64,000 nt of DNA, taken from the IMG/VR virus record IMGVR_UViG_3300010413_000021, positions 6,649 to 70,648 of that record; one strand, given 5' to 3'. The notes beneath the pieces are model-generated. The model did no database searches and was not told the origin of the DNA. It worked only from the letters and a program-made list of their open reading frames with translations. Both the position numbers and the translations under genes were made by a program. This document shows positions 11,698 through 64,000 of the stretch, piece by piece; the first letter of the stretch is position 1; the number at the start of each line of letters is the position of its first letter. The stretch is from a virus.

Positions 11698-12318
11698 CTA
11701 TGTCTCTACCAAGGTAACATTGTCACTATACTCAACCACAGTCCAGATACCCGCCGTCATACAGACCATCTTGAGATATGGAATTTCTGTTGAAGCAGAA
11801 CCACGAGCCATATCAATTCTGGAAATCTGACTGAAGCCGGAATCTATCTGTGCATAGATAGAACACTCTGTCGTCACATCACTCATGGAAATCTGCAAGC
11901 TGGCCGACAGTCCCCAGTTAGCACCACAGATAACAAGAAAATCACCAAGGTTTGCTGATTGAATGTCACATGAAGTGTTGCTTGCATTGGTGGACAAGGC
12001 AATATCATGATAACCATAAGGAGGCGTCAACGTCGGCAAGTTGCCCGACGTTCCTGCACCGGAGAGTGCAGCCGTTGCCGCTGATGTGCTCGTCCTTGTG
12101 ATTGCATAATTCGACCGCAGAAAGTTTTTGATCTGATCCGCAGTATAATTAGTTCCAAAGAAACCAAAGATACCGCCGGTTGCCATGCTAAAAGTCCCGC
12201 CCGCCTGAATGTCAATGTCTCCGCCAGGCTCAACAGCAAGCAAACCACTATCAGCAATAATAAGCTCCTCGGCTCCCTGCTTGCGGTAGACCTTCGGTTG
12301 ATAAGTTCCATCTGCCAT
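11698..12318 (-). CDS. Putative capsid decoration/head fibre protein, Ser/Thr-rich
   Basis: 206 aa with good RBS, downstream of the capsid gene; YQPKVYRKQG N-terminus. Confidence 0.55.
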   Translation of the reverse strand: MADGTYQPKVYRKQGAEELIIADSGLLAVEPGGDIDIQAGGTFSMATGGIFGFFGTNYTADQIKNFLRSNYAITRTSTSAATAALSGAGTSGNLPTLTPPYGYHDIALSTNASNTSCDIQSANLGDFLVICGANWGLSASLQISMSDVTTECSIYAQIDSGFSQISRIDMARGSASTEIPYLKMVCMTAGIWTVVEYSDNVTLVET

Positions 12319-48980: not shown

Positions 48981-48983
48981 AAA

Positions 48984-50534: not shown

Positions 50535-50536
50535 AA

Positions 50537-50794
50537 ATGAGTTTATTTTGGGAAGACCCATACCAGTTTGAAATTGTAACTTTGCCAAATACTAAAATTT
50601 ATCGAATACGTTATAGACAAAAGAACAAATTACTTGGGTTTACAGAAGAAAACTATCTTATTAAACATAATCCGAATGAGCTTTGCAAACTTACTAGACG
50701 AACATCTTCCTGCAATTTTGCTGCTGAATTTAGTTCAAAAGAAGAAGCACAAAAAGCTCTTGATGATTTTAAAAGCGGGTGGGTCAGGGCATAA
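50537..50794 (+). CDS. Hypothetical protein
   Basis: GGAGG RBS before ATG 50537. Confidence 0.5.
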   Translation: MSLFWEDPYQFEIVTLPNTKIYRIRYRQKNKLLGFTEENYLIKHNPNELCKLTRRTSSCNFAAEFSSKEEAQKALDDFKSGWVRA

Positions 50795-51396: not shown

Positions 51397-51551
51397 TTGA
51401 TTCACTTATTAATTCATTTGAAAAAGCAGATCCAATAATAATTGTAATTTGTTCAATCCCGGTTGGGATAGCATTGGGATTGCTTTTAATAAATTTAGTA
51501 AAGTTGATCTTTTGTCTATTTGTTATTTTATTTGAAAGGATAACAGGATGA
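51393..51551 (+). CDS. Small membrane protein (52 aa)
   Basis: MIDSLINSFEKADPIIIVICSIPVGIALGLLLINLVKLIFCLFVILFERITG; ATGA overlaps on both sides. Confidence 0.55.
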   Translation: MIDSLINSFEKADPIIIVICSIPVGIALGLLLINLVKLIFCLFVILFERITG

Positions 51552-52333
51552 AAACAGTAGCAATCATTCTCTGTCGTATGGCCTCAAGCCGATTGCCGGG
51601 CAAGGCACTTTTGCCGTTAGCAGGCAAGCCAAGTTTGCAATGGTGCTATGAGCGGGTGTCAGCGGCAAAGGAAGTGGATGAGGTTGTCATTGCCACAACA
51701 TTGAATGAATCTAATAACGCCCTTCGCATGGTTTGTGAGGAGAATCAATGGACATGCTTTAACTACCCGCAGGATGAAAATGATTGTTTGGGCCGGGTGT
51801 ATAACTGTGCTGTTACCTGTCAAGCAGACATAATAGTTGACATCACCGCCGACTGCCCGCTGGTCGATCCCCGGCATATTGACCATCTGGTTAAACTGCT
51901 CAAGGATACCGGCTATGATTATGTCAGTAATGATATAATCAGCAGGTCATGGTGTGACGGTGCCGATTTACAAATTTACACCATGAATGCTTTGAATCGA
52001 ATCTGTGCTGCTCCATATTCAATGATTAATAAAGAGCATACCGGCTGGAATATTGCAGCACACGGACATGAATTTGCACCAGCCATGAAAATATATCACT
52101 TAGTAGCACCAGAGACAATGAACTGGCCGGAATTGTCCCTTTCGTTAGACTGTGCAGAAGATTGGAAATTCCTTGAAAAGCTGATGCTGGATGCTGGTGT
52201 AGACAGAGACAAAAGACACAATATTGATACTACACTTGAAGATATAATTCAATTTCTAAAACACAGATTGATAGATGAACCCGGCTATATTACTAATCAG
52301 GGTATTCACCGAAAATGGAGAGATGCAAAATGA
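51548..52333 (+). CDS. Nonulosonate cytidylyltransferase (SpsF/PseF/NeuA superfamily)
   Basis: CRMASSRLPGKALL, VVIATT, ITADCPLVDP, EH and SLDCAED motifs. Confidence 0.88.
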   Translation: MKTVAIILCRMASSRLPGKALLPLAGKPSLQWCYERVSAAKEVDEVVIATTLNESNNALRMVCEENQWTCFNYPQDENDCLGRVYNCAVTCQADIIVDITADCPLVDPRHIDHLVKLLKDTGYDYVSNDIISRSWCDGADLQIYTMNALNRICAAPYSMINKEHTGWNIAAHGHEFAPAMKIYHLVAPETMNWPELSLSLDCAEDWKFLEKLMLDAGVDRDKRHNIDTTLEDIIQFLKHRLIDEPGYITNQGIHRKWRDAK

Positions 52334-52935
52334 AATTGATAAGGAAAACAGTAGTGAAAGTTAGTTCTACAGGAAAGAGCAAATCTAGCTATGGGTTGTT
52401 CTACTGTGATTATTGCAAACAAGAGGTTGAAAGAAAACTGAATCATGGAAAAGAAAATAAATCTTGTGGTTGTATGAGAACCAAACACAACATCAAACAT
52501 GGACTAACACCAAAACACCAAAAACAAGCCCCTATATATCAGATATGGGCAGGAATGAAAGCCCGCTGCCGAGATAAAAATCATAGCGGTTATCATAGTT
52601 ATGGTGGTCGTGGTATTAAAGTTTGCAAAGAATGGGATGAGGATTTCTGCTCCTTTTGGGAGTGGTCAAAGAAAAATGGTTATAGAAAAGGGCTAACCAT
52701 TGACCGAATTGACAATGATGGAAATTATGAACCTGATAATTGCAGATTTGTTACTCATCGAGAAAACTACTGTAATTGTAGTCGTGTCAAACTTAGTTTT
52801 GAGAAAGCAGAAAAAATAAGAAAACTATATGTTACTGGCAACTTTCGACAAAAAGACTTAGCCAAAAAATATAACGTTCCACAAACATCTATTAGCAGAG
52901 TTGTCCTAAATAAAGTATGGAGTCAGCCATTATGA
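52330..52935 (+). CDS. HNH-type homing endonuclease
   Basis: KSCGC, WAGMKARC, YGGRGIKVCKEW, TIDRIDNDGNYEPDNCR and a C-terminal HTH. Confidence 0.88.
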   Translation: MKLIRKTVVKVSSTGKSKSSYGLFYCDYCKQEVERKLNHGKENKSCGCMRTKHNIKHGLTPKHQKQAPIYQIWAGMKARCRDKNHSGYHSYGGRGIKVCKEWDEDFCSFWEWSKKNGYRKGLTIDRIDNDGNYEPDNCRFVTHRENYCNCSRVKLSFEKAEKIRKLYVTGNFRQKDLAKKYNVPQTSISRVVLNKVWSQPL

Positions 52936-53516
52936 TCCAAGGTGAAAAAGTATATCTGTCAGCGGTTGAGCCTGAGAACTGGGAAACTTTACGGGCTTGG
53001 AGAAACCTGCCGGAGCTGCGGGCAAACTTCAGGGAATATCGTGAACTGACAAAGGGGATGCAGGAGCAGTATTGGCGGGCGGTGGAGCAGGACAGGACGC
53101 AGGTTCATTTTGAGGTTCATACTGAAAAAGCACACAGGCAATCAGTTATAGACGATAAAACAGGCAAAATAATAAAACCAAGTCACATTGCTTATAACGA
53201 ACTAATCGGCTACTGTGGCTTGACTCACATCTCATGGACTAACAGGAGCGGAGAGTTTGGCTTGTATATTGCGCCGGAGTTCCAGGGCAACGGCTACGGC
53301 TGGGATGCCTTGACTACGCTTGTCAAGTATGGGTTTGAGGAATTGAACCTGCATCGGATCTGGTGTGAATGTTACAGCAACAATGATCATGCAGTAGGGA
53401 TGTATGCCACGATGGGTTTCCGGTCTGAGGGGATATTGAAGCAGCATTATTATCATGCCGGACAGTATTGGGATTCAGTTATTATGGGGTTGCTGAAAGA
53501 GGAGTGGGAGGGATAG
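52932..53516 (+). CDS. GNAT N-acyltransferase (PseH/RimJ-like)
   Basis: LRAWRN, IGYCGL, FQGNGYG, LNLHRIWCE and GFRSEG motifs. Confidence 0.85.
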   Translation: MIQGEKVYLSAVEPENWETLRAWRNLPELRANFREYRELTKGMQEQYWRAVEQDRTQVHFEVHTEKAHRQSVIDDKTGKIIKPSHIAYNELIGYCGLTHISWTNRSGEFGLYIAPEFQGNGYGWDALTTLVKYGFEELNLHRIWCECYSNNDHAVGMYATMGFRSEGILKQHYYHAGQYWDSVIMGLLKEEWEG

Positions 53517-54539
53517 ATGACTAAAAAACTACGTGCTGTAATTATTGGATCAGGGAACATTGGAGCAAATAAACCAGATCATATAGACAGGCCAGATGGA
53601 CCAAACATCCTAACACATGCTCATGGATATCAAGCAAATCCCCAAACTGAGTTAGTAGGATTTGTTGACATTGATTTTGATAAACTGTCGATGGCTACTT
53701 ATAAATGGGGTAGAAACATTCCAATACTTCATGGCAAAAACATGAATCAGGTTTTAGACAAAATGAAACCTGATATTATTACTATTTCTGCTTGCACTAG
53801 TGTCCAGCTTCAGGTTATTGAAGAATTGCTTAAAGGCAAAGGCCCACGTCCTAAAGTAATTCTGCATGAAAAACCAATGGGCATGAATACTACAGAAGCA
53901 AAAAAGATTGCCACTATCTGCAAAAAAGAGAATATCATTATTACTGTAAATTATACCCGCCGCTATGATCCTGACCATCGAAATATAGCACAGAAATTGA
54001 AGGGAAAACAAATCTACCATAGCAGACTGGTATATGGTCGAGGACTTCGGCGTGATGGTTGCCATGCTGTTGATCTTGCTCATTGGTTATTTGGCAAACG
54101 ATTAAACACAAAAGCAACTGATCCATTGAAAGCAGAGCATCATGGGGAAGTAACGCCCTGTATTTCTCAGACATTAGCATTTGAGCATTGCCCCCGTGTT
54201 TCCTTTGAATGGATAGATTCAAACCATTTCAGCATATTTGAATATGATCTATTCTATGAAGGTGGGCATATTCGTTTTTACAGAAATGGTATGATGTATG
54301 AAGAGGGGGAAGTAAAAGCAGAAGATGAACTCGGAAAATATAAAGCTCTTTATCCTGATCCTGAAGCACCACGAAATACAAGCCTAGTTCCATTTCTGAT
54401 TGCTCGTCCGATAGAACATGCAATTAGACTTGCCCAAGGAAAAGAAACAAAGCCTTATTGCTCTGCTGAAGATGCAGTCCGTGTTCATGAAACAATGGAA
54501 TTTATGTTAGGGGATAAAGGAGAATTTAACTATGCCTAA
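53517..54539 (+). CDS. Gfo/Idh/MocA family oxidoreductase
   Basis: IIGSGNIG, EKPM, VNYTRRY and GCHAVDL motifs. Confidence 0.88.
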   Translation: MTKKLRAVIIGSGNIGANKPDHIDRPDGPNILTHAHGYQANPQTELVGFVDIDFDKLSMATYKWGRNIPILHGKNMNQVLDKMKPDIITISACTSVQLQVIEELLKGKGPRPKVILHEKPMGMNTTEAKKIATICKKENIIITVNYTRRYDPDHRNIAQKLKGKQIYHSRLVYGRGLRRDGCHAVDLAHWLFGKRLNTKATDPLKAEHHGEVTPCISQTLAFEHCPRVSFEWIDSNHFSIFEYDLFYEGGHIRFYRNGMMYEEGEVKAEDELGKYKALYPDPEAPRNTSLVPFLIARPIEHAIRLAQGKETKPYCSAEDAVRVHETMEFMLGDKGEFNYA

Positions 54540-55959
54540 ACTAGCAATCAACGGCGGCCCCAAAGTCAGAACCAGCTTACTCCCCAATCAACAGACGTGG
54601 GGATGGGATGAGGCTTCTGCTGCTTTTCAAGTTATTCGTAAAGGCCCACTCACCGGCTACCAAGGTAACTGGAGCGAGGCATTTTATGGCGGGCCGGAGA
54701 TTCGTGCGCTGGAAAAGGAGTGGTGTGAGAAGTTCGGCAGCCGCCATGCAATCTGTGTCAACTCCTGCACGTCCGGGCTGTTTGTGGCGTTGGGCGCGGT
54801 GTTGGGGCCATTGAAGGAAGTTGTGGGCTTGCCTTCACCAGGAGACCCTATTGATCAATGGTGGGCTAATGGTGAAGTCATAGTCTCACCCTACTCCATG
54901 ACCTGCTCTGCCTCACTTCCTTTAGCATGGGGGGCAAGGCCGGTGTTCGCTGACATTGAACGGGATCACTTTTGCATTGACCCGGTTGACGTTGAAAGGA
55001 AAATTACTGACAGAACCAAAGCTATACTTGCTGTCAGTTTGTTTGGGCAGCCGTATGATCCAAAGCTGAATGAGATTGCCGAGAAACACGGCATACCGAT
55101 TATTGAGGATGCGGCGCAGGCGTTGGGATCAAGAATTACAATTCCACATAGTGACCCTTATATTGATCCATCAGCAGAAAGCACAGTTCATTTTGCCGGG
55201 ACGCTCGGCACAATCGGTGTCTATTCATTCAACCAAGGCAAGCATATCACCTGCGGGGAAGGCGGGATGATTGTTACTGATGACGATGAATTGGCTCACC
55301 GTTGCAGATTATTAATGAACCACAGCGAGTCAGTTGTCCATGATTGGATTCAAGCCTGTAAACACCCTGAATCAGATCGTATTGGGGATTATGAAAAAAG
55401 AGTATTTGACAATACCGCAAATATGTATGGATTTAACTTGCGTCTCGGAGAAATGGCCGCTAGTGTGTTGCGCGTCCAACTAAGTAAGCTGGATGAAATG
55501 CTGAAATTGCGGTTGCAGAACGTTGAATATTTGCAGCAGGAGATCCCCAAAGTCTGCCCGGCGCTTGAGGCGTTAGGGCCGAGGGCGGGGGCAAGCCATA
55601 CTTACTATGTGTTGCCGTTTCGATATGATACAAGTCGGCGCACCCATATGAATGAAGATGAAACAACATACTATACTGCCCCTAACCGTAACCGCTTTAT
55701 TGAAGCCGTCTGTGCAGAACTAAGCCCCTGCGAAGGGCGTGAGCATGAAGGTGTGCCGATACGGGGCGGGTATATCACGCCTATCTACCGTATGCCTTTG
55801 TTTGATCTGCCGGAAGGAACCTGCCCGATGTGTGAGCAGGTGCAGAATGAGGAGCTGGTTTTGGTTCACAGATTGATCGGGCCGAACGCTGACCGGGAAA
55901 GTCTTGAGGATGTAGTTCGGGCGTTTGGGAAGGTGTGGGAGAATAGGGGAGAATTGTAA
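54532..55959 (+). CDS. DegT/DnrJ/EryC1/StrS sugar aminotransferase (PseC-like)
   Basis: NSCTSGL, PVFADI, EDAAQALG, SFNQGKHITCGEGG (PLP lysine) and GFNLR motifs. Confidence 0.93.
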   Translation: MPKLAINGGPKVRTSLLPNQQTWGWDEASAAFQVIRKGPLTGYQGNWSEAFYGGPEIRALEKEWCEKFGSRHAICVNSCTSGLFVALGAVLGPLKEVVGLPSPGDPIDQWWANGEVIVSPYSMTCSASLPLAWGARPVFADIERDHFCIDPVDVERKITDRTKAILAVSLFGQPYDPKLNEIAEKHGIPIIEDAAQALGSRITIPHSDPYIDPSAESTVHFAGTLGTIGVYSFNQGKHITCGEGGMIVTDDDELAHRCRLLMNHSESVVHDWIQACKHPESDRIGDYEKRVFDNTANMYGFNLRLGEMAASVLRVQLSKLDEMLKLRLQNVEYLQQEIPKVCPALEALGPRAGASHTYYVLPFRYDTSRRTHMNEDETTYYTAPNRNRFIEAVCAELSPCEGREHEGVPIRGGYITPIYRMPLFDLPEGTCPMCEQVQNEELVLVHRLIGPNADRESLEDVVRAFGKVWENRGEL

Positions 55960-55960
55960 A

Positions 55961-56251
55961 ATGAATTGGTTGCCATATCCACAAAATGAACCAGCAGATG
56001 AAGAGTGGGTTTTAACAGCAAAAGTAATCCGATATGGAAATGCACCCTGGAAGTGGCATATTAACTACGCCCAATATCGAAATCGAAATCGAAATGGAGG
56101 ATTTTTTTGTTCAGACAGTCTAGGATGGGGACGGATAGATGAGCCAGACTTTTTTGCTTCTGTTGATCTTCCAAAATTTATAATAAAACCAGTTCATCAA
56201 AAAGAGCAAAAAACATGCAAAATTGGATGCAGTTTTGGTGCTGACTTATAA
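55961..56251 (+). CDS. Hypothetical protein
   Basis: MNWLPYPQNEP...; GGAG RBS. Confidence 0.5.
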   Translation: MNWLPYPQNEPADEEWVLTAKVIRYGNAPWKWHINYAQYRNRNRNGGFFCSDSLGWGRIDEPDFFASVDLPKFIIKPVHQKEQKTCKIGCSFGADL

Positions 56252-56264
56252 AAAGGAAAACAAA

Positions 56265-57116
56265 ATGCCAACTAAATTTATATGTGACATCGGCGCGAAT
56301 CACAACGCCGACTTTAACCGTCTCACCCGCCTGGTAAAGACCGCCAAGCGCATCGGCTGTGACGGGGTGAAGGGGCAGTTGTTCAATGAAAACCTATACG
56401 CCCCGCAGTTCAAACAGCAGCGGGACATGATGGCAAAGCGGGCAATGCCTGAAGGTTTTATTATCGAACTGCACAAGCTATGCAAGGATGAGGGGCTGGA
56501 GTTTCACATGACACCCTTTTCCCTTGAAGCAGTAGACAAGCTGGCAAATTGGGTGGACGGGCTGAAAATCGGCAGCTATGAAATATTGTGGCTGGACTTG
56601 ATACGGAAATGTTTAGAAACCGATCTCCCTGTTGGTATAAGCACAGGAAATTGCAATGAAAAAGACTTGTGGAACGTATCTGACATGATGGATGATCTTG
56701 AACTGTTACATCCTGATGATCCACCGCACACTTTATATCATTGTATTGGGCACTATCCAGCAAACCCTGATACTAGCAATTTGAAAAACATCAAAGAGTT
56801 GAATAGAATTTTTTGTTTTGATTTTAAGATTGGCTACTCCGATCACACCCGCTCCCCTGGTGTGATATACCGGGCGATAATGGTGGGGGCTGAGGCAATA
56901 GAATTTCACCTTGACCTGGACGGAGAGGGCTGGGAGTTTGAGCATGGACACTGCTGGTTGCCTGCTGAGATACAGGAAGTAATCAGCAATGTCAGGATAG
57001 GCGAACTGGCAGTCAGTGGTGAGCGGTCTGATGACAGTGAAATCAGGAAGTGGAGAACTGACCCTGTTGACGGTATGCGGCCTCTTGCACAATACCGTGA
57101 GGAGCTAAGTAAATGA
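56265..57116 (+). CDS. neuB: NeuB-family nonulosonic acid synthase (PseI/SpsE-like), without a C-terminal SAF domain
   Basis: DIGANHN, KGQLF, TPFS, LKIGSYE, ISTG, HC...YP, GYSDHT and IEFH motifs. Confidence 0.92.
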   Translation: MPTKFICDIGANHNADFNRLTRLVKTAKRIGCDGVKGQLFNENLYAPQFKQQRDMMAKRAMPEGFIIELHKLCKDEGLEFHMTPFSLEAVDKLANWVDGLKIGSYEILWLDLIRKCLETDLPVGISTGNCNEKDLWNVSDMMDDLELLHPDDPPHTLYHCIGHYPANPDTSNLKNIKELNRIFCFDFKIGYSDHTRSPGVIYRAIMVGAEAIEFHLDLDGEGWEFEHGHCWLPAEIQEVISNVRIGELAVSGERSDDSEIRKWRTDPVDGMRPLAQYREELSK

Positions 57117-57193
57117 GTATAATATTTTGTCTATTGCCTGCACTTGTTATCGGTGGTTTTTTAATCTTACTTGCTAAAATGGATGAGAATTAA

Positions 57194-57376
57194 ATGTCTA
57201 ATTGGCCCACAAGCAGAAAAGTCTCAGTAGCACTATTGTATTTACTATTCTTTCCCCTTTGGCCTATATGGTTATTGATACTAGGAGTAACAGCATTGAT
57301 TTACTACGCACAGCCACCGGATGAACGCGGTAAGTTTTCCGATTGGATTCCTGTGGGTGGGAGTTTGTATTTATAA
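57194..57376 (+). CDS. Small membrane protein
   Basis: Long hydrophobic stretch. Confidence 0.55.
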   Translation: MSNWPTSRKVSVALLYLLFFPLWPIWLLILGVTALIYYAQPPDERGKFSDWIPVGGSLYL

Positions 57377-57570
57377 TGCCTAAAATGTTCCAACCTAATA
57401 TTGACTCCGTGCAAGCGGAACTGGAGAACTGGAACTGTGTTGACTGTTCAGATTACAGAGAAAAGCCCGGCAAAATGAACTACTGCAAAGCCGGTGGGGA
57501 GCTAAGGTTTATCCCGCGTTACATTGACGTTAAGAAAACGCACCCGGCGTGGTGTCCGTTGGAGGGTTAA
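57376..57570 (+). CDS. Small Cys-rich protein
   Basis: CVDC...YC...PAWCPL. Confidence 0.55.
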   Translation: MPKMFQPNIDSVQAELENWNCVDCSDYREKPGKMNYCKAGGELRFIPRYIDVKKTHPAWCPLEG

Positions 57571-58605
57571 ATGGTAGAAACGAAAAACCGGGAATGGCTT
57601 ATTACTGGTGGTAGTGGTTCATTGGGAAAGGCACTAACTAAGGTTCTGTTAAAAGAACAGCAACCTAGAGGTATTCGTATTTTTTCAAGGGGTGAGATTG
57701 CTCAATGGGCAATGGAACATAGTGGAGAATTTGATGGGCCGGTGTCCTATTTAATAGGTGATGTAAGAGATAAAGACAGATTACGCAGAGCCATGGAAGG
57801 GGTTGATTTTGTAGTTCACGCAGCTGCCATAAAAAGAATTGATGCAGCAGAAAAAGACCCAATGGAGGCAATCAAAACCAACGTCAACGGGGCAATGAAC
57901 GTGATTGATGCTGCCTTGGATGCAAGGGTTGAGCGGGTGATGAACATTTCTACCGACAAAGCGGTTTACTCAATCAACCTGTATGGGCACACCAAGGCAG
58001 TTGCTGAAAAGCTGTTTGTCCATGCTAATGTTTATCGGAGTGGGTCACAGGGGGTTATTAATGATCCTTGGCTATCACAAAGGGTAAAAGAAGGATTTAC
58101 TTCAGTAACAAAGAAAAACATCACCCGCTTTTCCTGCTGCCGGTATGGTAACGTTTTAGGCAGCAGGGGATCAGTTGTGCCACTGTTCAAACAGCAAGCT
58201 GAACAGGGCATACTAACTTTAACTGATCTGAGGATGACGCGGTTCTGGATCACCTTGCCGCAGGTTGCCCGGTTCATCATTGCCCGGTTGCAGGACATGG
58301 AAGGCGGGGAAATATTCATCCCCAAAATGCCCAGCATGAAAATCAGCGATATGGCCACCTGCATTGTGCCAGATCATGAAACAGAGTTTAAACTTACTGG
58401 CGTCCGGCAAGGGGAAAAGCTGCATGAGACTTTGATTACATGGGAAGAGGGAGAGCGGGTTTTTATATCATCACAAGATGATAGTTACTATATTATTCAC
58501 GAAGCTGGGCAGTTTCCTACTGGAACTGCATTTGTTTGGACTTCAGAAAACAACACAGAATGGCTTACCCCTGAAACATTAAAGGAAATGCTGGAGGAGG
58601 ATTAA
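57571..58605 (+). CDS. pseB: UDP-GlcNAc 4,6-dehydratase (PseB/FlaA1-like)
   Basis: ITGGSGSLG, IGDVRD, HAAAIK, STDKA, NLYGHTK, RYGNVLGSRGSVVP, RMTRFWIT and GEKLHE motifs. Confidence 0.93.
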   Translation: MVETKNREWLITGGSGSLGKALTKVLLKEQQPRGIRIFSRGEIAQWAMEHSGEFDGPVSYLIGDVRDKDRLRRAMEGVDFVVHAAAIKRIDAAEKDPMEAIKTNVNGAMNVIDAALDARVERVMNISTDKAVYSINLYGHTKAVAEKLFVHANVYRSGSQGVINDPWLSQRVKEGFTSVTKKNITRFSCCRYGNVLGSRGSVVPLFKQQAEQGILTLTDLRMTRFWITLPQVARFIIARLQDMEGGEIFIPKMPSMKISDMATCIVPDHETEFKLTGVRQGEKLHETLITWEEGERVFISSQDDSYYIIHEAGQFPTGTAFVWTSENNTEWLTPETLKEMLEED

Positions 58606-58607
58606 TT

Positions 58608-58961
58608 ATGTGGTTTGTATTTTCAACTTGCACCTTTCTTTATGCTCTTGGTATGCTACATGGAACTAAACTTAGTGGTAGAAAAGAAGTCTATGCTATG
58701 GCTTTGCTTTATTGCATAATTGCTTTCTTCATTTCTTTTCCTGCTTCTTGGTATGACATAAAACAAAAATTAGCAGGAATAGAGGAGGTGAGGGAAAGTG
58801 TAGAATTAGCAAGGCAAAACAATGAGTTCGAAAAAGCAGCTTTACAACACAAAATAATTGAAGCTAACCAAGCCATTGCAGAATACCAATACAGAAACAC
58901 AGTGCTTTGGTTTTGTATGTGGGTGCCTGATGAAGTGGATGAAGTTAAATTAATTAAGTAA
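58608..58961 (+). CDS. Membrane protein
   Basis: Two N-terminal hydrophobic helices and a coiled coil. Confidence 0.55.
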   Translation: MWFVFSTCTFLYALGMLHGTKLSGRKEVYAMALLYCIIAFFISFPASWYDIKQKLAGIEEVRESVELARQNNEFEKAALQHKIIEANQAIAEYQYRNTVLWFCMWVPDEVDEVKLIK

Positions 58962-58972
58962 AGGAAAACTAA

Positions 58973-59575
58973 ATGATCTACCATAACGAAACCACTCGCA
59001 TACGCCCGGCCCTTGCATCTGACTTGAGTAATCAATATGTGCAATGGTTGAATGATCCGCAAACTAACATTTACACCAGCCGAGGGATATGGCCGGTTTA
59101 CCACCATGAAGCAAAGGACTATCTGGAATCCCTGCCCGGTGATGAAACTAAAATAGTATGGGCAATAGAATGGTGCCCTGAGGGGAAACTAAGTGGAACG
59201 CACATCGGCAACATTGCCTTGCAGCAGATTGACCTTTTGAACCGCTCCGCAGAACTGGCAATCCTGATTGGCAACAAATCAGCACAGGGGCAGGGCCACG
59301 CAACACGGGCAATGCGGATGGTGATTGCTCACGGGTTCACCCGGCTGGGACTTAATAGGATTTGGGCGGGGACGGCAGAGGGAAATGAGGGGTTCAGGAA
59401 AGCAGCAATTAAATGTGGGATGGGAATTGAAGGGGTGGCGGTTCAGGCACTATGGCTGGACGGAAAGTTTGTTAGTGTTCACAGCTATGCAATAACTAGA
59501 GGCATGTGGGATATTCATCAGCAGGAATCAGAACCGGCCCTGCCGTTTGAGGAGAATAATGATTTGGATAAGTAA
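58973..59575 (+). CDS. GNAT N-acyltransferase (RimJ/PseH-like)
   Basis: YVQWLNDP, HIGNIAL, AELAILIG, GQGHA and LGLNRIW motifs. Confidence 0.85.
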   Translation: MIYHNETTRIRPALASDLSNQYVQWLNDPQTNIYTSRGIWPVYHHEAKDYLESLPGDETKIVWAIEWCPEGKLSGTHIGNIALQQIDLLNRSAELAILIGNKSAQGQGHATRAMRMVIAHGFTRLGLNRIWAGTAEGNEGFRKAAIKCGMGIEGVAVQALWLDGKFVSVHSYAITRGMWDIHQQESEPALPFEENNDLDK

Positions 59576-60563
59576 AAAACTACAGCCACAGTTAAGAGCA
59601 AGTCAAGCAATGATTGATGCTGGGTATGGAAAAGCACCCCCTAATAATTGTTTGTCTTTCACAGAGCGCGGTAGATTTTACATAGTAAATACGTTTAAAT
59701 GTAATAATCATTGCTCTTTTTGTTCATTCCATAAAATACAAATACAGGAATGTTCTACCGCAAAACTAAGTAAACAGATTGATCGAGCATTTGAATCAAA
59801 TACAGGTTTTTCAAATTACTCCATTTCAATTACAGGGGGTGAACCATTAATAAAACAAGTTAGATTGGCTTCAATAATGGAATCTTTGCAAAAACATAAT
59901 GATCATATCAGATGGATTGGTTTTGGAACTAACGGATCATTACCCATTCCAGATTATTTACTTAACAAGTATGATAAAAAAGAAATACGATTTTACATAA
60001 GCAGACATCATTATAACGAAAAACGAAGCAGGCTTATCTTTGGTAATCCAAATCCAAAGCAATCCTTTGAAAAGTGTGTTACTTCATTGACAAATAAAAA
60101 CCATATCAAGTTAGCTGCAACTTGCAATTTGATTAAAGGACAGATTGACTCACTTAGTGAACTATGCAAATATTTAGATTGGGTAAAAAAACTAAACATT
60201 CACACTGTGGTTTTTCGTGAGCTAAACAAAATTGGAAAAGAAACAGCTTCTTATCCAGATCCAGAAATAAAACGGTATATGAATTATCGGGAACGATGCT
60301 TAGTCGACATGAACTCCATTTTGCAAAAAATACAGGAACATGCAGAGTTTGAATTTGTAGAGCAAACAGTAAGACCATTCATTTATCACGAAGTTTGGAA
60401 ACGAAACGGAACAATCATTACTTTTCGCCGTATTAGCGAGGAAGGGTTGCTTTCTTATAACAGACAAGACTCACGGATTGATGAGTTAGTTTTATGGCCT
60501 AACAGCAGGCTTTGTGGCTGTTGGGATTATGATATGAAAGTTTTAGAAAAGGAGGTGATGTAA
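59559..60563 (+). CDS. Radical SAM protein
   Basis: CNNHCSFC, ITGGEP, TNGS and ISRHHY motifs. Confidence 0.85.
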   Translation: MIWISKKLQPQLRASQAMIDAGYGKAPPNNCLSFTERGRFYIVNTFKCNNHCSFCSFHKIQIQECSTAKLSKQIDRAFESNTGFSNYSISITGGEPLIKQVRLASIMESLQKHNDHIRWIGFGTNGSLPIPDYLLNKYDKKEIRFYISRHHYNEKRSRLIFGNPNPKQSFEKCVTSLTNKNHIKLAATCNLIKGQIDSLSELCKYLDWVKKLNIHTVVFRELNKIGKETASYPDPEIKRYMNYRERCLVDMNSILQKIQEHAEFEFVEQTVRPFIYHEVWKRNGTIITFRRISEEGLLSYNRQDSRIDELVLWPNSRLCGCWDYDMKVLEKEVM

Positions 60564-60676
60564 ATGCCTAGTCGGCCATATCGTCCAATCAAACCAGGCA
60601 CATAATGCATATGTGGGTGTTCTGCCTCCAGAACACCCCCTAAAACGCTCATATTTGGCTTCTAAGAGGACTTTTT

Positions 60677-63508
60677 ATGAAGAATGATACAAACCATTAC
60701 CAGAAAAATCTTGAAGCGATAAGGTCTTTATATCCGGCCCTTGCAGAATGGATTGAAAAGACTAACCCGGTGGACTGGATTACTCGGGCACAGAGCAAAA
60801 ACGGCACTAACAATCTGCTCATCCGGCAGGCTAACCGCTGGGCACCAGCCTATGATATGGAAGATGCCCTGAAAAACGTCAAGGAAGCATTGAAGAGCAT
60901 CCCCTGTCTGTATCGTCAGGGAGTTAGTGTTATACTCGGTTTCGGGCTGGGGCACTTAGTCAATGAAATATTTCAGACCTGTGAGCAGGGGCACCATGTA
61001 TTAGTTGCAGAGCCTACCGCGCACATGATCCGGCTTGCCCTGATGGAATATGACTTTTCAAAGCAGATTAAGGATCAGCATTTAGTTATCTGTGCCCCAT
61101 CCGATGCAGAGTTAGTATTTGCTCTGAATGTAACAGAAGCAAGGAAAGCGGTGGAATACTGGAATACCCTGATGGAACCCTATACCACCGCCCGCCCGGA
61201 CGAATATGCGGAACTGGCAAAAACCACTATGAGGACAATAAACCAGATCAGGTGCAATACCGGCACAGTGATTGGAGCAGGGGCGCAGATAGCAGATAAT
61301 GGAATAGCCAACCTGCCATGGGTGGTCCGGCACCGGGGAGTAAAGGAACTGGAAAACTTATACAAAGGCAAACCGGCTATCTGTGTCTGCACCGGGCCGA
61401 GCCTTGAACGCAATATACATTTACTAAAAGAAGCACAGGACAAAGCAATTATAATATGTGTTGGGCAGGCTATCAGGCCGTTACTTGCTTATGATATTAA
61501 ACCAGACTTCGCCACCACGGTTGACTTCGGTAAGGTAAACGAGGGGCACTTTCGGGGGCTGATGGATTGTGGTGTGCCTCTCGTTTGCCTTGATAGGACG
61601 TATGCCCCGCTGTTGAAGCAATGGCAGGGGCCGAAGTTCGTCGTGGGCACCCCTACCGCTGCACCAGATGAATCCGCTCACGGTGTTCTCAATGCCAAGG
61701 GCTGTCTGGATCAGGGCGGGTCCGTTGCTCACATGAGCCTGGGGCTTGCCAAGCATCTGGGCTGCAATCCGATTATGTTAGTTGGGCAGGACCTGGCATT
61801 ATCTGATAGGAGCCACACCCGGCAGGCAGACGCGGCGGGGAACGTGTCTGTTACTCCTGAAGGGGAGATAGCATGGCACGTAAAAGACCCGCTCTGCCAT
61901 CTCCATGACCAGCATCACAGCATGGGTGGGGTAATGAAAGTTCCAGGTTATTATGGTGAGCCTGTAATGACTAACTCCGGGCTGGCTTCATTCATCAATG
62001 TTTTTGAGATACTAATTGCAAACTATAAAGCAAAGGTAATCAATGCCACTGAGGGCGGGGCAAAGATAAAAGGAACAATCCCGCTTTGGCTTGATGATGC
62101 TATTGTCAAGTATTGTAAACAATCGTTCCCAAAAACCAAACATCTGCACTTGTTTTCTTTGGCAGACAACGCCGATGAACTGATTAAAATCTGCACCAAA
62201 TCTCTCACTGAGGACTTGAAAACATTTGACAGGATAATTGACTATTGCCGGAAGGGATTGAAAACTCTGACCGGCATGATTACTGCCAGCAGAAAGGGAA
62301 GTCACAAGCAACTGAGAAAGCAGCTTGATGAAAATACCAAGTGGAGCAACCTTGCCCATGAGGAAAGCCAGAAGATACCGCTGATGGGAGTGGCAATATT
62401 CGGGGCGCAGCAACAGATACAAATGCGGGAGATGAACATAAAGCAGCAGGTAAAAGTCAAGCTGAAAGAGAATTTCACCTACGAACAGACAATGGAAGCC
62501 AAGAAAAAGGCCATGACCAAACATCTGCTCAGCGGAGAAACAGCAGACCTGCAAATCCTGATTAAGCGTAACCGGCATATACTTAGTGAAGCAAAGAAGG
62601 CAGCGGAGTCATTGAGGAAAAGTTACAAGCAGGCACTGGCAGACCTGAAAAAAGACCCGGCAGAGTTCCGGCAGGAGGAGCCAATACAGCTTGACAAAAT
62701 GCCTCAGTTCTTTGAGGATGGAAACTTTGCCCGGCCACTTTTAGAAGCCCGGCGCTATATGAAGGCAACCGTGGTGGAAACCGGGAAAGAGGCATCAGAG
62801 TGGTGCAAGGCGTGGGATCTGCGGGAGCGGGCGCTGGAGAAACGGGCAGAGGCAATCAAGGAAGCCGATAAGCTGAGAGCCAAAGAACGGAAGGAAAAAA
62901 GACACCTGCTGCCTATGTATCATTGGCACATTGAACGGAGCAGGGAAGCAGGCCGGGCCGAACCGCCGAAGTTTCACCGGGCGCTGCGGTGGCTGAAACT
63001 TGCTCAGAAGTTGTTTCCAAATGATGAGACTGCTCAATACGGCATTGCTACCACGCTTCATCATTTGCAACGATATGAGGATAGTATATGCCAGTATGAA
63101 CGATTAGTGAAAAACTATCCTGAGAAATCAGACTATCGGTTTGAATTGGGGCAGGTGCAGATCAAGGCTGGGGAAGTAAACAAGGGATTGAAAAACATCA
63201 CAGAGGCCATGAAGGGAACCAAGAAGCATGATGGTTTCCTGCCGGTGCTTGCTCAGATCAAGATTGACCTGGCAAAGAAGCCGAAAGAGAAACTTGAACA
63301 GACGGAAGATGAACAGGAGAAAAAGAAACTACAGAAGCAAGTCAACCGACTACACAAAGATGCCCTTGAAGCACTAAACCTCTACCTGGCCGATTCACCC
63401 TATGACTATGCAGCATTGAATAAAAAAGCCCAATGCCTGGAAGCACTGGGCAAAACGAAGGACGCGGAAGAGATCCGCCAGCAGTTGAAGGAATTAGGGG
63501 TGAATTAA
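60677..63508 (+). CDS. maf: Maf-family (DUF115/MAF_flag10) glycosyltransferase with helical region and C-terminal TPRs
   Basis: GFGLGH, AICVCTGPSLERN, IKPDF..TVD, GGSVAH..LGLAKHLGCNPIMLVGQDLA and INATEGGAKI motifs; TPR-like YEDSICQYERLVKNYPEKSDYRFELG. Confidence 0.88.
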   Translation: MKNDTNHYQKNLEAIRSLYPALAEWIEKTNPVDWITRAQSKNGTNNLLIRQANRWAPAYDMEDALKNVKEALKSIPCLYRQGVSVILGFGLGHLVNEIFQTCEQGHHVLVAEPTAHMIRLALMEYDFSKQIKDQHLVICAPSDAELVFALNVTEARKAVEYWNTLMEPYTTARPDEYAELAKTTMRTINQIRCNTGTVIGAGAQIADNGIANLPWVVRHRGVKELENLYKGKPAICVCTGPSLERNIHLLKEAQDKAIIICVGQAIRPLLAYDIKPDFATTVDFGKVNEGHFRGLMDCGVPLVCLDRTYAPLLKQWQGPKFVVGTPTAAPDESAHGVLNAKGCLDQGGSVAHMSLGLAKHLGCNPIMLVGQDLALSDRSHTRQADAAGNVSVTPEGEIAWHVKDPLCHLHDQHHSMGGVMKVPGYYGEPVMTNSGLASFINVFEILIANYKAKVINATEGGAKIKGTIPLWLDDAIVKYCKQSFPKTKHLHLFSLADNADELIKICTKSLTEDLKTFDRIIDYCRKGLKTLTGMITASRKGSHKQLRKQLDENTKWSNLAHEESQKIPLMGVAIFGAQQQIQMREMNIKQQVKVKLKENFTYEQTMEAKKKAMTKHLLSGETADLQILIKRNRHILSEAKKAAESLRKSYKQALADLKKDPAEFRQEEPIQLDKMPQFFEDGNFARPLLEARRYMKATVVETGKEASEWCKAWDLRERALEKRAEAIKEADKLRAKERKEKRHLLPMYHWHIERSREAGRAEPPKFHRALRWLKLAQKLFPNDETAQYGIATTLHHLQRYEDSICQYERLVKNYPEKSDYRFELGQVQIKAGEVNKGLKNITEAMKGTKKHDGFLPVLAQIKIDLAKKPKEKLEQTEDEQEKKKLQKQVNRLHKDALEALNLYLADSPYDYAALNKKAQCLEALGKTKDAEEIRQQLKELGVN

Positions 63509-64000
63509 GCTATATCTTCCGACCTGCACTTTTCAATGAAATCAGCGCCACTGTTCTCTACTCGAAATGTGATTTGAGAATAGTGGCCTTCTGCAATAGC
63601 CACACCACCAGCCAAAGCAACTCCTGCATCAAACAGATAATTTGCCCCCCATGTAATAGCCCCCAACCCGGCTACTCCGGGGTTGTTATAAATCATAATA
63701 GTAAACTCCTGACCATCTGTTCCATTGGTGGCATTGTTAATAGTGAAATTGACTGCATCACTAGCATCAATATAGAAATAATCACCATTATTAAGGTTTG
63801 GAGTCATAGCAGCGGAGTAAGCCAAAGCAACCCGGCCCTCTGATCCCTTCATGGTTGCCTTGCCATAGTTGTCAATATCCATGGTAGTCAGATCAAGCAT
63901 TGCAGCATTACTATTTGAAAGCACGGTTGCGGGATTATAAATATACATATTGCTCAAGGACACCCGCCCGCTAGTAGCAGCAGCATCGTCAATAAAATTG
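63505..64000 (-). CDS. Tail fibre/virion protein C-terminus; open beyond the window end
   Basis: The frame has no stop up to 64000; TPNLNNGDYF...NFTINNATNGTDGQEFTIMI...ITWGANYLF resembles phage tail-fibre distal domains. Its stop overlaps the maf stop. Confidence 0.6.
   Translation of the reverse strand, partial: NFIDDAAATSGRVSLSNMYIYNPATVLSNSNAAMLDLTTMDIDNYGKATMKGSEGRVALAYSAAMTPNLNNGDYFYIDASDAVNFTINNATNGTDGQEFTIMIYNNPGVAGLGAITWGANYLFDAGVALAGGVAIAEGHYSQITFRVENSGADFIEKCRSEDIA

What the first reader, a model, noticed from the sequence alone, without database searches (positions are those of the whole stretch)
51548..63508. Phage-encoded nonulosonic (pseudaminic-like) acid pathway plus a Maf glycosyltransferase: candidate viral protein O-glycosylation system
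Seen: a co-oriented, tightly packed run of cytidylyltransferase, GNAT, Gfo/Idh/MocA oxidoreductase, DegT aminotransferase, NeuB-family synthase, PseB-like dehydratase, second GNAT, radical SAM and a 943-aa Maf/DUF115-TPR protein, contiguous with the phage replication genes. Established: PseB-PseC-PseH-(PseG)-PseI-PseF makes CMP-pseudaminic acid, and Maf proteins transfer such sugars to Ser/Thr of flagellins in Campylobacter, Aeromonas and others. Inference: the phage makes its own sialic-acid-like sugar and attaches it to a protein target. The target could be virion proteins (shielding or mimicry) or host flagellin/pilin (receptor masking, superinfection exclusion); DNA is less likely. The cluster is interleaved with phage-type small ORFs and an HNH gene, so it looks resident rather than a host flank.
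Basis: partly seen in the sequence, partly recalled or inferred. Interest (0 to 1): 0.92.

Follow-up and report, generated by a model that had tools for sequence, protein, structure and literature searches.

The report
Phage sialic-like sugar and Maf transferase
A complete uncultured tailed phage carries its own genes to make an activated sialic-acid-like bacterial sugar and a flagellin-type enzyme that attaches such sugars to proteins; the protein it decorates, part of its own particle or the host's flagellin, is still unknown.

Summary
Observation confirmed. Window 51548-63508 is a co-oriented, tightly packed block: cytidylyltransferase, HNH, GNAT, Gfo/Idh/MocA, DegT, short NeuB, PseB-like dehydratase, second GNAT, radical SAM and a 943-aa Maf-TPR.

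It lies inside a closed 70.5-kb virulent myovirus genome, between the replication arm and a convergent tail-fibre gene, so it is not a host flank.

The core (CTP-GFO-DegT-NeuB-PseB-GNAT-Maf) is syntenic in about 50 IMG/VR contigs of one capsid lineage. 13 of 14 capsid-selected contigs of at least 50 kb carry the Maf gene.

The Maf model (pLDDT 91.5) matches the solved Maf 5MU5.

No PseG or NeuC-type step was found in this genome. Radical SAM, HNH and the four small ORFs had no or rare relatives in related loci; a second GNAT is in 8 other loci.

The nearest cellular relative (32% identity, TPR included) sits three genes from a flagellin gene in a Desulfarculia chromosome. So host flagellin stays a serious rival to a virion protein as acceptor.

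No paper on such a phage system turned up in ten searches. This scan noted the same module on at least six other phage genomes.

The parts
51548..52333 (+). Cytidylyltransferase (CMP-sugar synthetase, KdsB/NeuA-like); predicted to activate the nonulosonate with CTP
   Evidence: CTP_transf_3 91.7 bits. Best solved match 6OEW 'Cytidylyltransferase', aligned over residues 2-209, then KdsB entries. PseF model only 17.8 bits. Relatives in 35 of 59 loci.
52315..52935 (+). Free-standing HNH homing-type endonuclease with a C-terminal HTH; a mobile insert, not part of the pathway
   Evidence: phrog_374 E 1.1e-47. Relatives in only 2 of 59 loci.
52917..53516 (+). GNAT1, an extra PseH-like N-acetyltransferase
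   Evidence: Acetyltransf_3 64.1 bits. PseH TIGR03585 72.7 bits, below the 93.1 cut-off. Two GNATs of at least 150 aa occur in only 9 of 48 sources with a GNAT, window included.
53517..54539 (+). Gfo/Idh/MocA-family NAD(P) oxidoreductase; conserved core gene with an unassigned step (sugar tailoring inferred)
   Evidence: GFO_IDH_MocA 37.3 bits. Only weak solved-structure matches. Relatives in 38 of 59 loci.
54532..55959 (+). DegT/PseC-like PLP aminotransferase (C4 amination of the 4-keto sugar, inferred)
   Evidence: DegT_DnrJ_EryC1 223.8 bits. PseC model 150.7 bits, below the 423.5 cut-off. Relatives in 42 of 59 loci.
55925..56251 (+). 108-aa ORF of unknown status
   Evidence: No Pfam hit; 0 of 59 loci.
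56223..57116 (+). Short NeuB-family nonulosonate synthase (297 aa), matched only over the NeuB catalytic domain (no SAF hit listed)
   Evidence: NeuB 141.9 bits. NeuB_NnaB 121.5 and PseI 104 bits, both below cut-off. Best solved match 6NCS, itself 290 aa, then SpsE 1VLI and PseI 8H2C. tblastn relatives in 36 of 59 loci; 43 of 52 sources by ORF clustering.
57194..57570 (+). Two small overlapping ORFs (60 and 75 aa) of unknown status
   Evidence: No Pfam hit; 0 of 59 loci.
57571..58605 (+). PseB-like UDP-GlcNAc 4,6-dehydratase (inverting type), predicted first committed step
   Evidence: Polysacc_synt_2 285.1 bits. PseB TIGR03589 356.7 bits (cut-off 407.75), against FnlA 189 and LegB 66. Best solved match 2GN4 'UDP-GlcNAc C6 dehydratase', 255.7 bits. 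Relatives in 46 of 59 loci.
58608..58961 (+). 117-aa ORF of unknown status
   Evidence: No Pfam hit; 0 of 59 loci.
58973..59575 (+). GNAT2, the lineage's canonical acyltransferase, placed just before Maf in relatives
   Evidence: Acetyltransf_3 72.4 bits; PseH model 29.1 bits. Relatives in 48 of 59 loci. Gene order shown.
59547..60563 (+). Radical SAM enzyme, a near-orphan accessory gene of this genome (extra sugar tailoring inferred)
   Evidence: Radical_SAM 34 bits. CxxxCxxC motif. 0 of 59 loci. Only two relatives at 40% identity in 5.8 billion clusters; the rest match the core only. The atlas places it near uncharacterised viral and bacterial radical SAM clusters.
60677..63508 (+). Maf-TPR protein glycosyltransferase (943 aa): N domain, MptE-like catalytic domain, long helical linker, C-terminal TPR
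   Evidence: MptE-like 148 bits, plus TPR hits that are each individually below their Pfam cut-offs. AF2 model pLDDT 91.5. Foldseek top hit 5MU5 Maf, E 5.3e-15, followed by OGT-type TPRs. Family alignment A1 has invariant Asp and His residues in the catalytic domain.
63505..64000 (-). 3' part of a 606-aa tail-fibre/beta-helix gene that crosses the genome junction and converges on Maf with a 4-nt overlap
   Evidence: ORF across the junction. phrog_1858 tail fibre E 6.3e-11. Beta_helix 20.7 bits, below the 25.9 cut-off. The same convergent arrangement is seen in most related loci.
11698..12318 (-). Candidate acceptor only (hypothesis): a 206-aa conserved head-module protein with a Ser/Thr-rich flexible loop
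   Evidence: 21% Ser+Thr, the highest of the 16 structural proteins checked. Relatives in 39 of 80 capsid loci. AF2 beta-sandwich, pLDDT 83.1, with a low-confidence block around residues 81-90 (segment 86-90 under 50). Fold resembles uncharacterised phage fibre or spike-like proteins. No evidence of binding to Maf.

Best explanation
The block is a resident phage module for protein O-glycosylation with a nonulosonic (pseudaminic-type) acid.

Inferred chemistry:
1. A PseB-like inverting dehydratase converts UDP-GlcNAc to the 4-keto-6-deoxy sugar.
2. The DegT enzyme aminates C4.
3. A GNAT acylates the new amine.
4. UDP is removed by an enzyme that is not recognisable in the phage: a host PseG, or an unrecognised phage protein.
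5. The short NeuB condenses the free sugar with PEP.
6. The cytidylyltransferase makes the CMP-sugar.
7. The conserved Gfo/Idh/MocA enzyme tailors the sugar. In this genome the extra PseH-like GNAT and the radical SAM enzyme probably tailor it further.

The cytoplasmic Maf-TPR enzyme then transfers the sugar to Ser/Thr of a protein chosen by its C-terminal helical/TPR module, as in the 'bipartite' Maf-1 of Shewanella.

I put about 0.8 on this general mechanism. For the acceptor I slightly favour a surface protein of the phage's own particle (about 0.4) over host flagellin (about 0.33). The stated confidence is for the whole statement, including the virion acceptor.

Shown: gene content, fold, residency and lineage-wide synteny. 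Inferred: every enzymatic step, the sugar and the acceptor.
For: - Domains.
- PseB-type first step: best solved match is 2GN4 at 255.7 bits, against 179 bits for the FnlA/CapE type.
- NeuB: it aligns with solved short and long synthases, including the GYSDH stretch.
- Maf: model pLDDT 91.5; Foldseek top hit is 5MU5 Maf, E 5.3e-15.
- TPR as acceptor-binding module: taken from Unay, Kint & Viollier, bioRxiv 10.1101/2023.12.03.569772 (abstract and sections 7, 8 and 14 read).
- Natural split forms: in L036, L038 and L042 the enzyme is split at residue ~450 into a catalytic gene and a helical/TPR gene. This supports two modules.
- Residency: closed genome with a 144-bp overlap, CheckV 100%; phage genes on both sides.
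- Conservation: tblastn relatives in 59 loci are GNAT2 48, GNAT1 47, PseB 46, DegT 42, GFO 38, NeuB 36 and CTP 35. The order CTP-GFO-DegT-NeuB-PseB-GNAT-Maf is fixed and converges on the fibre and baseplate genes.
- One capsid lineage: MCP found in 23 of 28 Maf-bearing records at 37-48% identity. 13 of 14 capsid-selected contigs of at least 50 kb carry Maf-TPR (contig names).

For a virion acceptor specifically:
- The phage looks virulent: no integrase at E<=1.
- It has no flagellin gene.
- The Maf-TPR clade is a single old clade inherited together with the virion genes.
- A Ser/Thr-rich head-module protein with a flexible loop is conserved in the lineage.
- An unrelated phage (L056) carries an independent Maf cluster four ORFs upstream of its portal gene.
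- Precedent: virion glycosylation in mycobacteriophages (Freeman et al. 2023). I saw this only as a reference entry and behind titles; the paper itself was not held.
Against: - No enzyme activity, sugar or glycoprotein has been observed.
- PseG and NeuC/LegG-type hydrolases are absent from this genome, and none of the ten accessory ORFs from related loci sent to Pfam is one. The pathway as encoded is therefore incomplete.
- Most enzymes score below the NCBIfam equivalog cut-offs.

Against a virion acceptor:
- Every characterised Maf acts on flagellin.
- The nearest cellular relative is a full-length Maf-TPR three genes downstream of a flagellin gene.
- That enzyme's TPR is 36% identical to the window's, within the phage-to-phage range of median 30%, maximum 40%. 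I see no sign that the phage TPRs have diverged to a new acceptor.
- The module sits with the early/middle replication arm, not in the late structural operon.
- I could not find complete lineage members that lack the module, so no contrast of virion proteins was possible.
Confidence: 0.4

Rival explanations
1. Same chemistry, but the acceptor is the host's flagellin. During infection the phage loads flagellin with its own tailored nonulosonate. Possible purposes are masking a flagellar receptor (superinfection exclusion, or protecting progeny from adsorbing to debris) or altering motility.
For: - All experimentally characterised Maf enzymes glycosylate flagellin (Unay et al., sections read).
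- The one chromosomal member of the phage-type clade (L161, Desulfarculia MAG, 2.6-Mb chromosome) lies in the order flagellin, GT2, PseB-like, Maf-TPR, with a second Maf upstream.
- It is 32% identical to the window enzyme over residues 2-940.
- Its TPR is as similar to the window's TPR as other phage TPRs are.
- The missing PseG fits a host that already runs a Pse pathway.
- The phage encodes no flagellin of its own, so a flagellin acceptor would have to be the host's.
Against: - The phage looks virulent. Flagellin is glycosylated before export and added only at the filament tip, so existing filaments would stay unmodified within one lytic cycle (established knowledge plus inference).
- Host-manipulation genes are usually patchy, whereas this roughly 9-12-kb module is near-universal and syntenic in the lineage.
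- The enzyme forms one old phage clade rather than repeated captures from hosts.
- Hosts are unknown. MAG bins holding such contigs span unrelated phyla, including groups not known for flagella. Binning of phage contigs is unreliable, so this point is weak.
Confidence: 0.33
2. The Maf-TPR modifies another host or phage protein that is neither a virion surface protein nor flagellin, for example a pilin, an S-layer protein or a non-structural phage protein.
For: - TPR modules are generic protein-binding scaffolds.
- The TPR part evolves fast: median 31% identity, against 53% for the catalytic domain.
- No acceptor could be pinned down here.
Against: No positive evidence. There is no precedent for Maf on such substrates in the papers I read.
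Confidence: 0.15
3. The pathway genes are auxiliary metabolic genes that feed CMP-nonulosonate into host surface glycans such as LPS or capsule. On this reading the Maf-TPR is secondary or inactive.
For: - An incomplete pathway lacking PseG resembles auxiliary-gene logic.
- A BNR/sialidase-like gene lies inside the cluster in 8 related loci. This hints at an interplay with nonulosonate-bearing glycans.
Against: - Maf-TPR is the most conserved member of the module: 50 of 52 sources.
- Its catalytic domain is the best-conserved part, median 53% identity with invariant Asp and His residues. This argues for a selected, active transferase.
Confidence: 0.06
4. The block is an assembly chimera, a host flank or decaying cargo. 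Alternatively, the sugar goes to phage DNA.
For: The contig is metagenomic and no reads were examined here.
Against: - The genome is closed and the cluster is internal, flanked by phage genes.
- The same synteny occurs in about 50 independent contigs.
- The ORFs are intact and tightly packed.
- GC content is 0.40-0.47 within the block, against 0.40-0.50 across the window.
- No thymidylate-synthase-like hydroxymethylase is present, and Maf is a protein transferase by fold.
Confidence: 0.03

Closest known systems
Maf-1 of Shewanella oneidensis MR-1, the 'bipartite' flagellin pseudaminyltransferase (Unay, Kint & Viollier, bioRxiv 10.1101/2023.12.03.569772)
   Same: It has an N-terminal MAF_flag10/MptE-like catalytic part plus a C-terminal TPR module that binds the acceptor and is required for glycosylation. 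It is encoded next to Pse-pathway and tailoring genes and uses a CMP-nonulosonate donor.
   Different: - The window's enzyme is encoded by a virulent phage that has no flagellin gene.
- It is 943 aa with a long helical linker.
- The acceptor is unknown.
- The paper does not mention phages: 0 occurrences of 'phage' or 'virus'.
Maf glycosyltransferase of Magnetospirillum magneticum AMB-1 (PDB 5MU5)
   Same: It is the best structural match of the model: Foldseek E 5.3e-15, TM 0.53 normalised to the target. It also matches the family profile over the conserved core motif.
   Different: 5MU5 is about 630-670 aa and has no TPR extension. Sequence identity is only 14%.
Chromosomal Maf-TPR in a flagellin glycosylation island of a Desulfarculia MAG (locus L161)
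   Same: It is a full-length homologue: 32% identity over residues 2-940, with catalytic domain 44% and TPR 36%. A PseB-like gene lies immediately upstream, 52% identical to the window's PseB. It falls in the same strongly supported clade as 41 phage enzymes (SH-aLRT 100).
   Different: - It is bacterial, with flagellin three genes upstream, a second Maf and several other glycosyltransferases nearby.
- No phage genes were seen in the ten neighbours scanned.
- Its position at the base of the clade is unstable: nested with one phage at support 93, but sister to all phage rows at support 84. The direction of transfer is therefore open.
Canonical CMP-pseudaminic acid pathway PseB-C-H-G-I-F (Campylobacter/Helicobacter)
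   Same: Counterparts of PseB, PseC, PseH, PseI and PseF are present at family level and co-oriented.
   Different: - There is no PseG.
- Only PseB comes near its equivalog cut-off.
- NeuB is short and scores slightly better on the NeuB model than on the PseI model.
- The cytidylyltransferase is KdsB-like.
- Extra Gfo/Idh/MocA, GNAT and radical SAM genes are present.
Virion glycosylation of mycobacteriophages (Freeman et al. 2023, Cell Host Microbe)
   Same: It is a precedent for phage-encoded glycosyltransferases that decorate capsid and tail proteins.
   Different: As I recall, those phages use different glycosyltransferase families, host nucleotide sugars and no nonulosonate. I saw the paper only as a reference entry; it was not held.

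Membership tests
Maf (motility-associated factor) nonulosonate protein glycosyltransferases | MAF_flag10 / MptE-like (PF01973) catalytic domain | tested here: met
   148 bits against a cut-off of 34.6; residues 208-377 cover profile positions 2-170 of 171.
Maf (motility-associated factor) nonulosonate protein glycosyltransferases | Overall fold of a solved Maf | tested here: met
   AF2 model with pLDDT 91.5 and pTM 0.86. Foldseek top hit 5MU5, E 5.3e-15.
Maf (motility-associated factor) nonulosonate protein glycosyltransferases | Maf N-terminal domain (PF20157) | tested here: inconclusive
   16.3 bits, below the 23.5 cut-off. Several family members carry the precomputed PF20157 hit.
Maf (motility-associated factor) nonulosonate protein glycosyltransferases | Essential conserved Asp of the MAF_flag10 domain (D247 in Maf-1) | tested here: inconclusive
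   Asp residues invariant across 36 family members exist in the catalytic domain: D277, D283, D372 and D385. I could not map them to Maf-1 D247, because its sequence and Supplementary Fig. S3A were not available.
Maf (motility-associated factor) nonulosonate protein glycosyltransferases | NCBIfam 'flagellin modification protein PseD' model NF050051 reaches its cut-off | tested here: not met
   131.5 bits against a cut-off of 670.
Maf (motility-associated factor) nonulosonate protein glycosyltransferases | Acceptor is flagellin | not testable with these tools
   The phage has no Flagellin_N hit at E<=1. The closest cellular relative lies beside a flagellin gene. The host is unknown.
Bipartite Maf-1 type (catalytic part plus acceptor-binding TPR in one chain) | C-terminal TPR module fused to the Maf catalytic part | tested here: met
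   TPR hits over residues 784-937. The model is helical from about residue 490 to 940 and matches OGT-type TPRs. Natural split forms at residue ~450 occur in L036, L038 and L042.
Bipartite Maf-1 type (catalytic part plus acceptor-binding TPR in one chain) | The TPR binds the acceptor protein | not testable with these tools
   This needs a two-hybrid, pull-down or glycosylation assay.
CMP-pseudaminic acid pathway (PseB-C-H-G-I-F) | PseB inverting UDP-GlcNAc 4,6-dehydratase | tested here: inconclusive
   TIGR03589 356.7 bits, just below the 407.75 cut-off. Best solved match 2GN4, 255.7 bits.
CMP-pseudaminic acid pathway (PseB-C-H-G-I-F) | PseC aminotransferase and PseH acetyltransferase at equivalog level | tested here: not met
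   PseC 150.7 bits against 423.5. PseH 72.7 bits (GNAT1) and 29.1 bits (GNAT2) against 93.1. The family-level DegT and GNAT hits are clear.
CMP-pseudaminic acid pathway (PseB-C-H-G-I-F) | PseG UDP-sugar hydrolase | tested here: not met
   No TIGR03590 hit at E<=1 in the complete genome, while the control genomes ring. No Epimerase_2 (NeuC/LegG type) either. None of the ten accessory ORFs from related loci sent to Pfam is such a hydrolase.
CMP-pseudaminic acid pathway (PseB-C-H-G-I-F) | PseI synthase and PseF cytidylyltransferase at equivalog level | tested here: not met
   PseI 104 bits against 340.25, with the NeuB_NnaB model scoring higher at 121.5. PseF 17.8 bits against 205.7. Family level: NeuB 141.9 and CTP_transf_3 91.7 bits.

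The most novel reading that the evidence does not exclude
A whole lineage of virulent myoviruses, with genomes of 58-123 kb, coats its own particles with a self-made, tailored pseudaminic-type sugar using a captured flagellin glycosyltransferase. This would be the first nonulosonate-glycosylated virus particle and the first non-flagellin substrate of a Maf enzyme. The TPR module would have been re-aimed from flagellin to a virion protein.
Probability: 0.4. Interest if true: 0.85.

Novelty: new variant of a known kind. Interest (0 to 1): 0.72.

Why it matters
Maf enzymes and nonulosonic acids are known from bacterial flagella, capsules and LPS, where they shape motility, immune recognition and phage adsorption.

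A phage lineage that keeps a 9-12-kb module (about 13-17% of a 70-kb genome) to make such a sugar and put it on a protein would extend this chemistry to viruses.

- If the acceptor is a virion protein, it opens questions on particle charge, stability, mimicry and adsorption. It would also give a new, compact, cytoplasmic O-glycosylation toolkit.
- If the acceptor is host flagellin, it would be a new kind of receptor remodelling by a virulent phage.

Either way the acceptor question is directly testable by co-expression. The Desulfarculia flagellin-island homologue and the natural split forms provide ready comparators.

Tried and rejected
- **GenBank phages.** Megablast of the whole block and tblastn of the Maf protein against 50,697 GenBank phage records found nothing. 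No cultured relative is available in that collection.
- **Single-protein scan.** A related-loci scan of viral contigs with the single Maf protein found nothing. Only the alignment-based scan worked.
- **Lineage members without the module.** 13 further capsid-bearing records had no Maf. All were only 17-44% complete, so this says nothing.
- **Complex prediction.** Maf residues 200-943 (alignment A1) against the 206-aa head-module protein (alignment A3) gave no verdict: score 0.00, mark 0.32, controls not run. This is neither evidence for nor against binding. Only one job was allowed, so the capsid, sheath, fibre and 184-aa proteins were not tried.
- **Fold of the 206-aa protein.** No PDB hit at E<=0.001. 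BFVD hits were uncharacterised phage proteins, and the atlas gave viral hypothetical clusters.
- **Radical SAM function.** NCBIfam gave only weak generic hits. The homologue search and the atlas gave no named relatives.
- **Introns.** Rfam found nothing at gathering score in window 48000-64000, nor in L036, L038 or L042. The split Maf genes there are not explained by a known intron family.
- **Promoters and terminators.** The scan of 50500-64000 gave counts equal to the shuffled expectation: 26 against 25.2, and 13 against 12.9. I infer no operon structure from it.
- **Host.** There are no tRNAs. MAG bins holding related contigs are taxonomically scattered. No host call was made.
- **Direction of transfer.** Two trees disagree on where the bacterial enzyme sits at the base of the clade. 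The careful search did not finish, so the quick tree was used.
- **Literature.** None returned a paper on a phage-encoded nonulosonate plus Maf system. Two apparent NeuB hits were the surname 'Neubauer'. Subscription journals, and the supplements of Unay et al., were not visible and might hold relevant data.

Full report
**What is there.**
Window 51548-63508 holds sixteen co-oriented plus-strand ORFs that overlap by a few bases or are separated by short gaps, the largest 113 nt. Ten have clear family assignments:
- a KdsB/NeuA-like cytidylyltransferase;
- an HNH endonuclease (phrog_374, E 1.1e-47);
- a PseH-like GNAT;
- a Gfo/Idh/MocA oxidoreductase;
- a DegT aminotransferase;
- a short (297-aa) NeuB-family synthase;
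- a PseB-like dehydratase (PseB model 356.7 bits, cut-off 407.75; best solved match 2GN4);
- a second GNAT;
- a radical SAM protein with a CxxxCxxC motif;
- a 943-aa Maf-TPR protein.

Four small ORFs (108, 60, 75 and 117 aa) have no family hit and no relative in related loci.

**It is phage DNA, not a flank.**
The window is bases 6649-70648 of a 70,648-base IMG/VR record with direct terminal repeats and a CheckV completeness of 100. The last 144 bases repeat the first 144, so the genome closes on itself.

The minus strand encodes terminase, portal, protease, capsid, connectors, sheath, tape measure and baseplate. The plus strand encodes helicases, clamp, split PolA, clamp loader, UvsX-like recombinase and SbcCD-like nuclease.

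The sugar block follows the SbcCD genes. Its last gene, Maf-TPR, overlaps by 4 nt the stop of a convergent 606-aa tail-fibre/beta-helix gene that runs across the junction.

No integrase, no tRNA and no flagellin were found. GC content in the block (0.40-0.47) is within the window's range.

**It marks a phage lineage.**
A protein search gave about 36 full-length relatives of the Maf-TPR at 32-52% identity. An alignment of them (A1) retrieved 59 viral loci, 51 of them with full-length-type relatives.

tblastn with the window's proteins found relatives in these 59 loci as follows:

| Gene | Loci with a relative |
|---|---|
| GNAT2 | 48 |
| GNAT1 (mostly cross-hits to the single GNAT) | 47 |
| PseB | 46 |
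| DegT | 42 |
| GFO | 38 |
| NeuB | 36 |
| Cytidylyltransferase | 35 |
| HNH | 2 |
| Radical SAM | 0 |
| Each of the four small ORFs | 0 |

ORF clustering shows a fixed order: SbcD-SbcC-CTP-GFO-DegT-NeuB-PseB-GNAT-Maf, converging on fibre, baseplate and hub genes.

The window's capsid protein is found in 23 of 28 Maf-bearing records at 37-48% identity. The five misses are two small fragments and three records that carry only distant, TPR-less Mafs.

In a sample chosen by capsid rather than by Maf, 14 of the 80 returned loci lie on contigs of at least 50 kb. Thirteen of those contigs are also in the Maf list. The fourteenth is a 44%-complete fragment without a hit.

The module therefore looks near-universal in this lineage. 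I could not, however, show or exclude complete members that lack it.

**The transferase.**
The AF2 model built on A1 is confident (pLDDT 91.5, pTM 0.86). Its best structural match is the solved Maf of Magnetospirillum (5MU5, E 5.3e-15), followed by OGT-type TPR superhelices.

Across the family the catalytic domain is the best-conserved part, at median 53% identity, with invariant Asp and His residues. The N domain, the helical linker and the TPR are at about 30%.

In the three closest relatives of the window's enzyme, the protein is naturally split at residue ~450 into a catalytic gene and a helical/TPR gene. This fits the two-module view.

**The pathway.**
PseB-, PseC-, PseH-, PseI- and PseF-like functions are present at family level. 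Only PseB approaches its equivalog cut-off.

The short NeuB has a solved counterpart of the same size (6NCS, 290 aa) and aligns through the GYSDH stretch.

No PseG and no NeuC/LegG-type hydrolysing epimerase exist in the complete genome, while the control genomes ring. None of the ten accessory ORFs from related loci that I sent to Pfam is such an enzyme. The UDP-release step is therefore unassigned: a host enzyme, or an unrecognised phage protein.

A Gfo/Idh/MocA enzyme is part of the conserved core with no assigned step.

This genome adds a PseH-like second GNAT (two GNATs in only 9 of 48 sources). It also adds a near-orphan radical SAM enzyme, with two relatives at 40% identity in the whole protein collection. 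The product is therefore probably a tailored, non-canonical pseudaminic-type sugar. That is inference.

**The acceptor.**
Scanning bacterial and archaeal genomes with A1 returned 11 loci. Most full-length hits lie on short or phage-sized contigs in MAGs of unrelated phyla, which are probably binned phage DNA.

One hit, L161, lies in a 2.6-Mb Desulfarculia chromosome. There the gene order is flagellin (Flagellin_N 137 bits), GT2, a PseB-like gene (52% identical to the window's) and Maf-TPR. A second Maf and two further glycosyltransferases lie upstream.

This enzyme is 32% identical to the window's over residues 2-940. By domain that is catalytic 44% and TPR 36%, the latter inside the phage-to-phage range.

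In a tree of the catalytic region it falls in one clade with 41 phage enzymes (SH-aLRT 100), away from ordinary ~620-aa Mafs. Whether it is nested or sister depends on the model.

The phage enzymes thus share recent ancestry with a genuine flagellin-island enzyme. I see no sign that their TPRs have been remodelled. This keeps host flagellin as a strong candidate.

Several points favour a virion protein:
- the virulent lifestyle;
- vertical inheritance of the module together with the virion genes;
- the poor effect expected from modifying only newly exported flagellin during a lytic cycle;
- a conserved, Ser/Thr-rich head-module protein (11698-12318) whose Ser/Thr-rich stretch includes a low-confidence, probably flexible segment (residues 86-90 under pLDDT 50);
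- independent Maf clusters in unrelated phages, one of them four ORFs upstream of a portal gene and equipped with a NeuC-type enzyme.

I put about 0.4 on a virion protein, 0.33 on host flagellin and the rest on other acceptors or readings.

DNA as acceptor has no support.

**Novelty.**
Ten full-text searches found no paper on a phage-encoded nonulosonate plus Maf system. The Maf-1 paper does not mention phages. GenBank phages hold no relative.

Earlier notes of this same scan describe the module on at least six other phage genomes and also left the acceptor open. They gave me the lead to the Maf-1 paper. I re-tested their main claims here.

- the flagellin-island member of the phage-type clade, with its conserved TPR;
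- the capsid-selected 13-of-14 count;
- the natural split forms;
- the BNR/sialidase-like accessory gene in 8 loci;
- the genome-specific radical SAM and second GNAT.

I class the finding as a new variant of a known kind (Maf-dependent nonulosonate O-glycosylation). Interest is 0.72.

Noticed in passing
L036:9974-13259, L038:9986-13568, L042:9965-12842: In the three closest relatives (about 52% identity in the catalytic half) the Maf-TPR is split at residue ~450. One gene encodes the catalytic part (460-470 aa) and a separate gene encodes the helical/TPR part (490-496 aa). In L036 and L038 an extra ORF (121 and 231 aa) lies between them. No Rfam intron was found there.
   Followed up: partly
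L008:6844-7947 (and 7 other loci, e.g. L042:6291-7385, L050:3237-4307): A ~365-aa protein with a BNR_2 sialidase-like beta-propeller domain (42.4 bits, cut-off 31.4) sits inside the sugar cluster in 8 related loci (between NeuB and PseB in the two gene orders I printed, L008 and L036). It could be a nonulosonate hydrolase or a stand-in for a missing pathway step.
   Followed up: partly
L161:6041-12991 (Desulfarculia MAG chromosome): This is a bacterial flagellin glycosylation island. The order is GT9, GT1-TPR, a 556-aa Maf, flagellin, GT2, a PseB-like gene and a 1009-aa Maf-TPR of the phage-type clade. MoxR/VWA genes follow.
   Followed up: partly
L056:6623-18148: An unrelated phage with a P22-like portal carries an independent cluster: a NeuC-type epimerase, methyltransferase, cytidylyltransferase, a Lar_N-like protein, a 643-aa TPR-less Maf, two unknown ORFs and a methyltransferase-TPR protein, four ORFs upstream of the portal gene.
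   Followed up: partly
window 7981-9264 (-): An unannotated 427-aa protein between the sheath and neck genes carries about five copies of a short 'ISLIP'-type repeat with acidic spacers at both ends. It has no PHROG hit and no relative in the 80 capsid loci.
   Followed up: no
window 63428-63451 (-) and 63505-63508: A strong terminator-like hairpin (10 pairs, then a T run) on the minus strand lies just downstream of the tail-fibre stop, inside the last codons of the Maf gene. The two convergent ORFs overlap by 4 nt.
   Followed up: no
window 12423-12977 (-): A 184-aa protein directly after the capsid gene (phrog_5707, unknown function) is conserved in 50 of 80 capsid loci. It may be a decoration or cement protein and is a second candidate acceptor.
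   Followed up: no
L009:6689-7423 and L030:2746-3675: Other inserts occur inside the sugar cluster of relatives: a sigma-70-like factor (L009) and an SPFH/Band 7 protein (L030). The cluster seems to be a hotspot for accessory genes.
   Followed up: no
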